Source: Escherichia coli (GTDB taxonomy: Bacteria; Pseudomonadota; Gammaproteobacteria; Enterobacterales; Enterobacteriaceae). Taken from it: a DNA stretch of 64,000 nucleotides. The DNA is taken from assembly GCF_009931435.1 (NCBI RefSeq), contig NZ_CP043414.1. One strand, 5' to 3'. Below are positions 13,332 to 16,300 of the stretch, one piece after another (the stretch's first letter is position 1; the number at the start of each line of letters is the position of its first letter). The position numbers are program-made.

Positions 13332-16300
13332 TGATCTGATTCGGGCGCGGTTCTCGCGCCCGTTATTAACAGGTCATTTATCGGAAGACGCCTGCCACAG
13401 ATTCAGCTCGCCATCGGCGATATGCTGATCAATCTGCGCCAGCTCCTCGGTGCTAAATGTCAGATTATTCAGCGCCTGGACATTCTCTTCCAGTTGCTCT
13501 GCACGGCTGGCACCGATCAATACCGACGTCACTCGCTCATCTTTCAGCAACCAGCTTAACGCCATTTGTGCCATTGATTGTCCACGCTGCTGTGCCATTT
13601 CATTCAATAACCGCAGGCTGTTGAGGTTGGCTTCGGTGAGCATTTTCGGCGTCAGACCACGAACTTTATTCCCTTCACGATGCATCCGTGAATCTTGCGG
13701 AATACCGTTGAGATATTTTCCGGTCAGCAATCCCTGAGCCAGAGGAGTAAAGGCAATGCAGCCCACGCCGTTATGTTGCAGGGTATCCAGCAGGCCGCTT
13801 TTATCCACCCAGCGGTTCAGCAAATTGTACGAAGGTTGATGAATTAACAGCGGAATTTTCCACTCGCGCAGCAACTCGACCATTTTTTGCGTCCGCTCTG
13901 GCGAGTAAGAGGAGATCCCGACATAAAGCGCCTTACCGCTTTGTACCGCATGAGCCAGCGCAGAGGCGGTTTCTTCCATCGGCGTATTTTCATCGACGCG
14001 ATGAGAGTAAAAGATATCGACATACTCAAGCCCCATCCGCTTCAGGCTTTGGTCGAGGCTGGCGAGCAGGTATTTACGTGAGCCGCCAGAGCCGTACGGG
14101 CCGGGCCACATATCGTATCCGGCTTTGGTAGAGATAATCAGTTCATCGCGATAAGCGGCAAAATCCTCCCGCAGCAGGCGACCAAAGTTCTCTTCTGCGC
14201 TTCCTGGAGGCGGCCCGTAATTGTTGGCTAAATCAAAGTGCGTAATGCCCAAATCAAACGCTTTGCGCAGGATCGCACGCTGTGATTCCAGTGCGTTAAC
14301 GTGACCGAAATTGTGCCATAAACCGAGCGATAACGCGGGCAGGCGTAAACCGCTTTTTCCGCAATAGCGGTATTGCATCTGCCCGTAACGTTCGGGATTC
14401 GCTAACCAGACCATGACCTCTCCTTTCCACCATTCAATTTCGAAACAATGTTTCCAGTTTAGCGATTTACCAGGGGGGATCCCGTAGCATCGCTCACAGT
14501 GTGACGAAAAACTGGGCAAAAACACGTGCTTATGCTTTGCTTAAAAAAACACCAATTGAGGAGTGCAATGATGCCGCGTCTGACCGCTAAAGATTTCCCA
14601 CAAGAGTTGCTGGATTACTACGACTATTACGCTCACGGGAAAATTTCGAAACGTGAGTTCCTCAACCTTGCGGCGAAGTATGCGGTGGGCGGGATGACGG
14701 CATTAGCGTTGTTTGATTTGCTCAAGCCAAATTATGCGCTGGCGACTCAGGTAGAGTTTACCGACCCGGAAATTGTTGCTGAGTACATCACGTATTCTTC
14801 GCCAAATGGTCACGGCGAGGTACGGGGTTATCTGGTGAAGCCCGCAAAGATGAGCGGCAAAACGCCAGCCGTGGTGGTGGTGCATGAGAATCGTGGACTG
14901 AATCCGTATATCGAAGATGTGGCACGGCGAGTAGCGAAGGCGGGGTATATCGCCCTGGCACCTGACGGCTTAAGTTCCGTTGGAGGTTATCCGGGTAATG
15001 ATGATAAAGGTCGTGAGCTGCAACAGCAGGTTGATCCAACCAAACTGATGAATGATTTCTTTGCCGCAATTGAGTTTATGCAACGCTATCCGCAAGCGAC
15101 AGGCAAAGTGGGTATTACCGGATTTTGCTATGGCGGTGGTGTATCGAACGCGGCGGCTGTCGCGTATCCGGAAATGGCCTGCGCGGTGCCGTTTTATGGT
15201 CGTCAGGCACCCACTGCCGATGTGGCGAAGATTGAAGCGCCTTTACTGCTCCACTACGCGGAACTGGATACCCGAATCAACGAGGGCTGGCCCGCTTACG
15301 AGGCGGCGTTGAAAGCCAATAATAAGGTCTATGAGGCGTATATCTATCCGGGGGTTAATCACGGATTCCATAATGATTCCACGCCCCGTTATGACAAATC
15401 TGCCGCCGATCTTGCCTGGCAAAGGACGCTGAAATGGTTCGATAAATATCTCTCCTGATAGGTTTATCTCTTACGGGATTACGTCTTAAACAAGCATGAA
15501 AAAATAGCGTGCGCAAAAGTCGTTCTTTGCCTAAAATATCGCTATATATGACAATATATAGCGAATGAGGTGAACGATGAATAACCATTTTGGTAAAGGC
15601 TTAATGGCGGGATTAAAAGCAACGCATGCCGACAGTGCGGTTAATGTGACAAAATACTGTGCCGATTATAAACGCGGTTTTGTATTAGGCTACTCACACC
15701 GGATGTACGAAAAGACCGGAGATCGCCAGCTTAGCGCCTGGGAAGCGGGGATTCTGACGCGCCGCTATGGACTGGATAAAGAGATGGTAATGGATTTCTT
15801 TCGTGAGAATAATTCCTGTTCTACGTTGCGCTTTTTTATGGCCGGTTATCGCCTCGAAAATTGATCAAACATACGTATTATCTTGCTTTAATTAATTACA
15901 CTAATGCTTATTCCCTTCGTTTTAGTGCCCCGCCGCAGTATCATGATATCGATAACCATAATAAATGTGTGGTAAATGGCGCATCGATCGCATTATTGAT
16001 TTTGCGATTGAGGCAAAATATATGCCAGATCTTCGCAACGGAATAACTATAAATGACTGGAGATAACACCCTCATCCATTCTCACGGCATTAACCGTCGT
16101 GATTTCATGAAGCTTTGTGCAGCATTAGCCGCCACCATGGGGTTAAGTAGCAAAGCCGCTGCAGAAATGGCCGAATCGGTTACTAACCCGCAGCGTCCGC
16201 CAGTTATCTGGATTGGCGCGCAGGAGTGCACCGGTTGTACGGAATCTCTGCTTCGTGCAACGCATCCAACGGTAGAAAACCTCGTGCTGGAGACTATCTC

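What the first reader, a model, noticed from the sequence alone, without database searches (positions are those of the whole stretch)
14568..15458. Dienelactone-hydrolase gene intact where K-12 is recalled to have a pseudogene
The frame is continuous for about 296 codons with a good SD. I recall yghX as frameshifted in K-12. An intact copy supports this chromosome being from a different lineage and gives a functional hydrolase next to the aldo-keto reductase gpr.
Basis: partly seen in the sequence, partly recalled or inferred. Interest (0 to 1): 0.3.

Follow-up and report, generated by a model that had tools for sequence, protein, structure and literature searches.

The report
Intact yghX hydrolase gene, ordinary allele
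The window carries an uninterrupted copy of the E. coli hydrolase gene yghX, which is broken by two small deletions in K-12; the intact form is the common, ancestral and already annotated state, so the finding is correct but ordinary.

Summary
Window 14568-15458 (+) is an open frame of 296 codons. The conserved start is the second ATG at 14571 (295 aa), 7 nt after a GAGGAG Shine-Dalgarno.

The product is a full-length YghX family hydrolase (NCBIfam NF041440, 585 bits against a cutoff of 460; Pfam DLH). It keeps the Glu/Cys/Asp/His active-site residues of dienelactone hydrolase.

K-12 MG1655 carries yghX as a pseudogene. It has a 2-bp deletion in codon 37 (window 14679-14680) and a 1-bp deletion in codon 157 (window 15040-15041).

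The K-12 state is the minority among 5,426 complete E. coli genomes:
- 2-bp deletion junction: 1,505 genomes; intact junction: 3,785.
- 1-bp deletion junction: 1,199 genomes; intact junction: 4,221.

Other genera carry intact 294-298 aa orthologues, and dN/dS among E. coli alleles is 0.03-0.09. The exact 295-aa protein is already in public databases. PDB 4ZV9 is the O157:H7 allele, whose substrate is unknown.

Two side results came out of the work. The K-12 "small protein" YqhI is the N-terminal remnant of this gene. That N-terminus also looks like a twin-arginine-type (Tat) leader: RR in most relatives, KR here. Export is inferred, not shown.

Novelty: already known. Interest: low.

The parts
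14558..14563 (+). Shine-Dalgarno GAGGAG of yghX, 7 nt before ATG 14571 and 4 nt before ATG 14568
   Evidence: Sequence. Conserved in all 12 E. coli alleles compared.
14571..15458 (+). yghX coding sequence, 295 aa plus stop.
   Evidence: NCBIfam NF041440 scores 585 bits against a cutoff of 460. PGAP annotation of the 99.9%-identical strain RMDEC465. The exact 295-aa protein is in public collections and the 296-aa form is not.
14571..14744 (+). N-terminal leader, residues 1-58. It has a conserved n-region (DFPQELLDYYDYYAHG), an S-K-R-E-F-L motif (K27-R28 at 14649-14654), a moderately hydrophobic stretch and an A-L-A site at residues 56-58. Residues 1-36 match Pfam PF23678 'YqhI-like'.
   Evidence: Pfam. 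Family alignment consensus RRxFL ... PNYAxA. 37 of 58 full-length representatives have RRxF[LIVM]. Hydropathy peaks at 1.55. The PDB 4ZV9 chain begins at about residue 59-60. Cleavage and export are inferred.
14679..14680 (+). Site of the K-12 2-bp (TA) deletion in codon Tyr37. Intact here.
   Evidence: Alignments. The K-12-type junction is in 1,505 genomes and the intact junction in 3,785 of 5,426.
15040..15041 (+). Site of the K-12 1-bp deletion (one C of CC, codon Thr157). Intact here.
   Evidence: Alignments. The K-12-type junction is in 1,199 genomes and the intact junction in 4,221.
14820..15452 (+). Dienelactone-hydrolase-family alpha/beta-hydrolase domain, residues 84-294
   Evidence: Pfam PF01738 E=5e-48. 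PDB 4ZV9 covers residues 59-294 at E=1.5e-159.
14886..14888 (+). Glu106 codon (HENRG), aligned with Glu36 of Pseudomonas dienelactone hydrolase
   Evidence: HMMER alignment to 4U2C. The residue role is from established knowledge of ClcD.
15126..15128 (+). Cys186 codon (G-F-C-Y-G), the predicted nucleophile
   Evidence: Aligned with position 123 of the ClcD variant 4U2C. Nearly invariant in the family alignment.
15267..15269 (+). Asp233 codon, the triad acid
   Evidence: Invariant column D233. Aligned with ClcD Asp171.
15360..15362 (+). His264 codon (V-N-H-G-F), the triad base
   Evidence: Nearly invariant column H264. Aligned with ClcD His202.
13374..14414 (-). gpr (L-glyceraldehyde 3-phosphate reductase, an aldo-keto reductase), the divergently transcribed neighbour
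   Evidence: ORF. PGAP annotation mapped from RMDEC465, J53 and MG1655.
15577..15864 (+). yghW (DUF2623), the downstream neighbour
   Evidence: ORF. Annotation.

Best explanation
This is the ordinary, ancestral, functional allele of yghX. It encodes a 295-aa alpha/beta-hydrolase of the dienelactone-hydrolase family. The enzyme uses a Cys186-His264-Asp233 triad, with Glu106, to hydrolyse an ester- or lactone-type substrate through a covalent thioester intermediate. The physiological substrate is not known. K-12 and about a quarter of sequenced E. coli lost the gene recently. A 2-bp deletion in codon 37 came first and stops translation 11 codons later. A nested 1-bp deletion in codon 157 followed. 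The remnant in K-12 is the expressed 47-aa 'small protein' YqhI. The first ~58 residues of the intact protein most likely act as a Tat-type export leader, with KR in place of the family's usual RR. On that reading the mature enzyme, starting near Thr59, works in the periplasm. Shown here: the intact frame, family membership, conserved catalytic residues, purifying selection, and the K-12 lesions with their frequencies. Inferred: the catalytic chemistry, by homology to ClcD. More weakly inferred: Tat export and leader cleavage.
For: - Frame and SD.
- Family: NF041440 at 585 bits against a cutoff of 460, and PF01738.
- Structure: PDB 4ZV9, the O157:H7 Sakai allele, covers residues 59-294.
- Catalytic residues align with ClcD and are invariant or nearly invariant in 32 relatives.
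- Selection: dN/dS is 0.03-0.09 in every pair listed that has synonymous differences (window or MG1655 against the other alleles, 12 alleles in all). Orthologues in Citrobacter, Pseudescherichia, Enterobacter, Kosakonia and Leclercia are 85-91% identical and 294-298 aa long. E. fergusonii has a 295-aa member.
- K-12 lesions.
- Census: 1,505 deleted against 3,785 intact at site 1, and 1,199 against 4,221 at site 2.
- Order of events: strain 2018-02-2CC matches MG1655 in this gene at every base but has only the 2-bp deletion.
- YqhI equals the first 36 aa plus 11 frameshifted aa. It is detected experimentally in K-12 (PMC6001520) and induced at low Mg2+ (PMC11429745), so the promoter and RBS are active.
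- Leader: the family consensus is RRxFL, then a hydrophobic stretch, then PNYAxA. TIGR01409 TAT_signal matches 6 of 32 relatives weakly. Hydrophobicity is moderate. The crystallised construct starts just after the A-L-A site.
Against: - No substrate is known. Purified EcoDLH showed no phosphotriesterase activity, and I did not look up its lactonase or esterase data.
- The window protein has K-R, not the canonical R-R, and matches no Tat-signal model itself.
- The n-region is unusually conserved for a signal peptide, which may point to a different role for the N-terminus.
- The simple sigma-70 scan found no consensus promoter in the gpr-yghX intergenic region.
- The window allele has two residues that differ from the other sampled alleles: S76, shared only with RMDEC465, and M202. 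Their effect is untested.
Confidence: 0.9

Rival explanations
1. The frame is open but the gene is silent or already decaying in this lineage. It would be a 'pre-pseudogene' that contributes no enzyme.
For: The gene has been lost without obvious cost in about 28% of E. coli. No consensus promoter was found by the simple scan. The window has two allele-specific substitutions, P76S and L202M.
Against: dN/dS is 0.03-0.09. All catalytic residues are present. The same 5' region is transcribed and translated even in K-12, as YqhI. Residue 76 varies freely across the family and M for L is conservative.
Confidence: 0.05
2. The N-terminal ~58 residues are not a cleaved Tat leader. Either YghX stays in the cytoplasm with a conserved N-terminal domain, or it is tethered to the inner membrane by an uncleaved signal-anchor, as in Rieske proteins.
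For: The window has K-R rather than R-R and does not itself hit any Tat model. The n-region motif DLYDxYxH is conserved across distant relatives, which is atypical for signal peptides. PF10399, the uncleaved Rieske Tat signal, matches 3 relatives weakly. K-12 YqhI was classed as a putative soluble protein.
Against: RRxF[LIVM] followed by a hydrophobic stretch and an AxA-type site occurs in 37 of 58 full-length representatives. Hydrophobicity is moderate, with a Lys-Pro c-region before A-L-A. The crystallised soluble domain starts right after that site. From general knowledge, K-R variants of the motif can still be transported.
Confidence: 0.35
3. yghX and the divergent aldo-keto reductase gene gpr form a functional pair. 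The hydrolase would open a lactone or ester and the reductase would act on the product, so the intact gene restores a two-step pathway that K-12 lacks.
For: The divergent gpr-yghX arrangement is conserved in Enterobacter mori. A 68%-identical homologue has an aldo-keto reductase gene immediately downstream on the same strand.
Against: Four other distant homologues have unrelated neighbours, and a fifth contig ends at the gene, so its downstream side is uninformative. If YghX is exported, the two enzymes are in different compartments. gpr is intact and annotated as functional in K-12 without yghX.
Confidence: 0.1

Closest known systems
YghX of E. coli O157:H7 Sakai (PDB 4ZV9, 'uncharacterized protein'; 'EcoDLH' in bioRxiv 10.1101/2025.10.30.685675)
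   Same: Same gene. There are five amino-acid differences over 295 residues (V69F, S76P, S135N, M202L, Y229F). The fold and the Cys-His-Asp triad are the same.
   Different: Allelic differences only. The crystal construct lacks the first ~59 residues.
K-12 yghX pseudogene (b4658) plus the small-protein gene yqhI (b4755)
   Same: Same locus between gpr and yghW. There are 19 substitutions in 888 nt, and the promoter region and SD are the same.
   Different: K-12 lacks TA at window 14679-14680 and one C at 15040-15041. Translation ends after 47 aa (YqhI). The K-12 locus is widely used as a neutral integration site in metabolic engineering.
Dienelactone hydrolase ClcD of Pseudomonas (PDB 1DIN and the 4U2x variants), EC 3.1.1.45
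   Same: Pfam DLH family and alpha/beta-hydrolase fold. The Glu36/Cys123/Asp171/His202 equivalents are all present with matching spacing.
   Different: Similarity is only distant (E~1e-15). ClcD has no N-terminal leader and sits in a chlorocatechol pathway operon. YghX is a stand-alone gene with no known substrate.
Klebsiella pneumoniae putative dienelactone hydrolase (PDB 3F67)
   Same: The next-closest solved relative (E=1.5e-23), with the same GFCxGG nucleophile motif.
   Different: It belongs to a different subfamily, and the solved chain aligns only from residue 80 onwards.

Membership tests
YghX family hydrolase (NCBIfam NF041440) | Full-length match above the curated cutoff of 460 bits | tested here: met
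   585.3 bits, covering residues 4-295 of the protein and positions 1-292 of the 292-position model
YghX family hydrolase (NCBIfam NF041440) | Chromosomal position between gpr and yghW/hyb, as in E. coli | tested here: met
   Same gene order as MG1655, J53 and RMDEC465
Dienelactone hydrolase family (Pfam PF01738) | Domain match above the gathering score | tested here: met
   163.9 bits against 21, covering profile positions 1-217 of 217
Dienelactone hydrolase family (Pfam PF01738) | Cys-His-Asp catalytic triad with the auxiliary Glu | tested here: met
   E106, C186, D233 and H264 align with ClcD E36, C123 (Ser in the variant), D171 and H202. They are conserved in 32 relatives.
Dienelactone hydrolase family (Pfam PF01738) | Carboxymethylenebutenolidase activity (EC 3.1.1.45) | not testable with these tools
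The literature says the family annotation is not predictive of substrate.
Tat (twin-arginine) exported proteins | Consensus S/T-R-R-x-F-L-K motif in the n-region/h-region boundary | tested here: not met
   The window has S-K-R-E-F-L-N, with Lys in place of the first Arg. 37 of 58 full-length family representatives do have RRxF[LIVM].
Tat (twin-arginine) exported proteins | Moderately hydrophobic h-region followed by an AxA signal-peptidase site | tested here: met
   The 15-residue Kyte-Doolittle maximum is 1.55 (residues 37-51), and K52-P53...A56-L57-A58 follows.
Tat (twin-arginine) exported proteins | Match to curated Tat-signal models (TIGR01409 / PF10518) | tested here: inconclusive
   The window protein gives no hit. 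TIGR01409 matches 6 of 32 relatives weakly, with best E=0.004.
Tat (twin-arginine) exported proteins | TatABC-dependent export | not testable with these tools
   Needs localisation experiments in tat+ and tat- backgrounds.
K-12-type yghX pseudogene | 2-bp deletion in codon 37 and 1-bp deletion in codon 157 | tested here: not met
   The window has TAT at 14679-14681 and CC at 15040-15041.

The most novel reading that the evidence does not exclude
The Pfam 'YqhI-like' domain (PF23678) is not a small-protein family in its own right. It is the unusually conserved n-region of a Tat-type leader shared by a wide family of periplasmic Cys-His-Asp hydrolases. On this reading the experimentally verified, low-Mg2+-induced K-12 small protein YqhI is a leader-peptide relic of a recently broken gene. 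The conserved DLYDxYxH motif ahead of the RR/KR pair could be a docking site for a dedicated chaperone or a regulatory element, which would be unexpected for a cofactor-less hydrolase.
Probability: 0.45. Interest if true: 0.3.

Novelty: already known. Interest (0 to 1): 0.1.

Why it matters
It matters little for discovery. The intact gene is annotated by PGAP in thousands of genomes, its exact protein sequence is already deposited, and a crystal structure exists. Three points have practical value:
- yghX is a clean presence/absence marker for a large K-12-like subgroup of E. coli, and its two nested lesions give an order of events.
- People studying the K-12 small protein YqhI, or using the 'yghX pseudogene' as a neutral integration site, should know that most E. 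coli express a full-length, selectively maintained enzyme from the same start codon.
- The enzyme's substrate and cellular location are still open questions.

Tried and rejected
- Promoter and terminator scan of 14300-15700. It found no sigma-70 consensus in the gpr-yghX intergenic region and nothing above the shuffled expectation. I therefore made no promoter claim from the sequence and relied on published YqhI expression instead.
- Functional coupling to gpr. Synteny holds in Enterobacter and an aldo-keto reductase gene is adjacent in one distant homologue, but four other distant loci have unrelated neighbours and one contig was too short to tell. I rejected this as a supported claim.
- Identifying the source genome. 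The best complete E. coli genome is only 98.5% identical over 25 kb. The exact-protein contig look-up returned nothing. The lineage remains unnamed.
- Literature search for Tat export of dienelactone hydrolases or YghX. Nothing relevant turned up.
- A possible independent origin of the K-12 lesions in a Nissle-labelled genome (EcN_Sk). That record is K-12-like across the whole 2 kb and differs from a Nissle 1917 reference at 54 positions. It is not evidence for recurrence.
- Structure prediction was not run, because a solved structure at about 98% identity exists.

Full report
**Observation.** The ORF list and raw sequence show an uninterrupted frame on the + strand from ATG 14568 to TGA 15456-15458, which is 296 codons. 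A GAGGAG Shine-Dalgarno lies at 14558-14563. The sequence begins ATGATG. The first ATG occurs only in the window and in two of eleven other E. coli alleles; nine have ACG there and Enterobacter has GCG. PGAP starts the gene at the second ATG in the 99.9%-identical strain RMDEC465. The 295-aa product is an exact match to a deposited protein ('MULTISPECIES: YghX family hydrolase [Escherichia]'), whereas the 296-aa form is not on record. The best CDS is therefore 14571-15458, which is a minor correction.

**Identity.** The protein matches NCBIfam NF041440 'YghX family hydrolase' end to end (585 bits, cutoff 460). It also matches Pfam DLH PF01738 over residues 84-294 and Pfam PF23678 'YqhI-like' over residues 1-36. 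PDB 4ZV9 covers residues 59-294 at E=1.5e-159. [quoted passage not shown] The HMMER alignment to the Pseudomonas dienelactone hydrolase variant 4U2C places E106, C186, D233 and H264 on the enzyme's Glu36, position 123 (the nucleophile), Asp171 and His202. In an alignment of 32 relatives reaching down to 35% identity, D233 is invariant and C186 and H264 are nearly invariant.

**Comparison with K-12.** MG1655 annotates yghX (b4658) as a pseudogene, with a separate 47-aa gene yqhI (b4755) at its 5' end. The K-12 derivative J53 is flagged 'frameshifted'. Alignment shows two lesions relative to the window:
- loss of TA at window 14679-14680, in codon Tyr37;
- loss of one C of the CC at 15040-15041, in codon Thr157.

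The two deletions sum to -3, so the last 138 codons return to the original frame. Translation nevertheless stops 11 codons after the first lesion. That gives MPRLTAKDFPQELLDYYDYYAHGKISKREFLNLAAK+CGRRDDGISVV, which is exactly the published YqhI sequence (PMC6001520).

**How unusual is the intact state?** I searched 50-52-nt junction probes that cannot seed across the alternative allele against 5,426 complete E. coli genomes.

| Site | K-12-type (deleted) junction | Intact junction |
|---|---|---|
| 2-bp site, codon 37 | 1,505 genomes | 3,785 genomes |
| 1-bp site, codon 157 | 1,199 genomes | 4,221 genomes |

About 135 genomes are unresolved at the first site, probably because of nearby SNPs. 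The locus itself is present at 80% coverage or more in 5,415 genomes. Intact annotated examples include ST131, O157:H7, BL21 and Nissle 1917. Strain 2018-02-2CC matches MG1655 in this gene at every base but has only the 2-bp deletion. The 2-bp deletion therefore came first, and both events are recent. Orthologues of 294-298 aa with 85-91% identity occur in Citrobacter, Pseudescherichia, Enterobacter, Kosakonia and Leclercia, and E. fergusonii has a 295-aa member. Intact is thus the ancestral state.

Nei-Gojobori dN/dS is 0.03-0.09 in every listed pair that has synonymous differences, namely the window or MG1655 against the other alleles, 12 alleles in all. This indicates purifying selection. 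The window allele differs from the others at S76 (P elsewhere; shared only with RMDEC465) and at M202 (L elsewhere). Position 76 is variable across the family and the change at 202 is conservative.

**Lineage.** The window is 97.3% identical to MG1655 over 8.7 kb around the gene. It is at most 98.5% identical over 25 kb to any complete E. coli genome. It is clearly not K-12. That follows from the substitutions; the open yghX frame only excludes the roughly 28% of E. coli that carry the deletion.

**Mechanism.**
- *Shown:* family membership, an intact active site, and selective constraint.
- *Inferred by homology to ClcD:* a cysteine-nucleophile esterase or lactonase mechanism with a covalent intermediate.
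- *Unknown:* the substrate. The purified O157 protein (EcoDLH) lacked phosphotriesterase activity, and the authors stress that the DLH label is not predictive (bioRxiv 10.1101/2025.10.30.685675).
- *Expression:* this is supported indirectly. In K-12 the same start codon drives detectable YqhI synthesis, which is induced at low Mg2+ (PMC6001520; PMC11429745). A simple sigma-70 scan found no consensus promoter.

**The N-terminus.** The family alignment has the consensus DLYDxYxH-x4-RRxFL, then a roughly 20-residue moderately hydrophobic stretch, then PNYAxA, then xQV. Of 58 near-full-length 50%-identity representatives, 37 have RRxF[LIVM] followed by a hydrophobic stretch and 3 have KR. Most of the remaining 18 are truncated or offset. 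TIGR01409 (Tat signal) matches 6 of 32 relatives weakly.

The window protein reads S26-K27-R28-E29-F30-L31. Its 15-residue hydropathy maximum is 1.55, and it has K52-P53 and A56-L57-A58. The crystallised construct begins just after that site. I infer a Tat-type leader with a K-R variant and a periplasmic mature enzyme, with a probability of about 0.5-0.6. The strict RR criterion is not met, the n-region is oddly conserved, and no experiment or paper addresses export. On this reading Pfam's 'YqhI-like' domain is this leader, and K-12 YqhI is its remnant.

**Neighbourhood.** gpr (13374-14414, - strand) is divergent from yghX, and yghW (15577-15864) and the hyb operon follow, as in other E. coli. 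The gpr-yghX pair is conserved in Enterobacter mori. One 68%-identical homologue has an aldo-keto reductase gene downstream. Four more distant loci show unrelated neighbours and a fifth contig was too short to tell. A functional link is not supported.

**Verdict.** It is a known, annotated and structurally solved gene in its common ancestral form, and K-12 is the exception. Novelty: already known. Interest: about 0.1.

Noticed in passing
window 15539-15564: A 26-bp AT-rich palindrome, TCGCTATATAT-GACA-ATATATAGCGA (11-bp arms, 4-nt spacer), ends 12 nt before the yghW start codon and just before its SD. Across 12 E. coli alleles the arms are conserved (one change, in GN02050) while the 4-nt spacer varies (GACA, TACG, GGCA, AACA, GGCG). 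That is the pattern expected of an operator or a hairpin with a free loop. The scan flagged it only as a terminator-like site on the - strand.
   Followed up: partly
window 14571-14678, compared with MG1655 yqhI (L002 5598-5741, - strand): The experimentally verified K-12 small protein YqhI (47 aa) is the first 36 residues of YghX plus 11 out-of-frame residues. Pfam PF23678 'YqhI-like' therefore describes the N-terminal leader of full-length YghX hydrolases: 28 of 32 full-length relatives match it.
   Followed up: yes
window 1-25000: No complete E. coli RefSeq genome is closer than 98.5% over 25 kb, yet the 1.2-kb yghX segment is 99.9% identical to strain RMDEC465. The window comes from a poorly represented lineage (or a Shigella-like or other non-'E. 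coli'-labelled genome) and is locally mosaic.
   Followed up: partly
L020 (NZ_CP172017.1, strain EcN_Sk), about 350-450 nt into yghX: This Nissle-labelled genome is K-12-like across the 2-kb locus and carries both K-12 deletions. The exception is a 96-nt patch with 19 differences, mostly at every third base. It looks like a recoded or gene-converted segment, or a chimeric or engineered record.
   Followed up: partly
H108, NZ_CM183444.1 strain BHUCD02, 3147652-3147703: This genome has MG1655-like length and coordinates, yet it matches the window-type intact junction at the 2-bp site exactly. It may be a reference-guided assembly of a non-K-12 strain.
   Followed up: no
window 50377-54957: A 1,526-codon ORF lies further along the window. 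From memory of this chromosomal region it could be the large lipoprotein gene yghJ/sslE beside the type II secretion cluster, which is partly deleted in K-12. Not examined.
   Followed up: no
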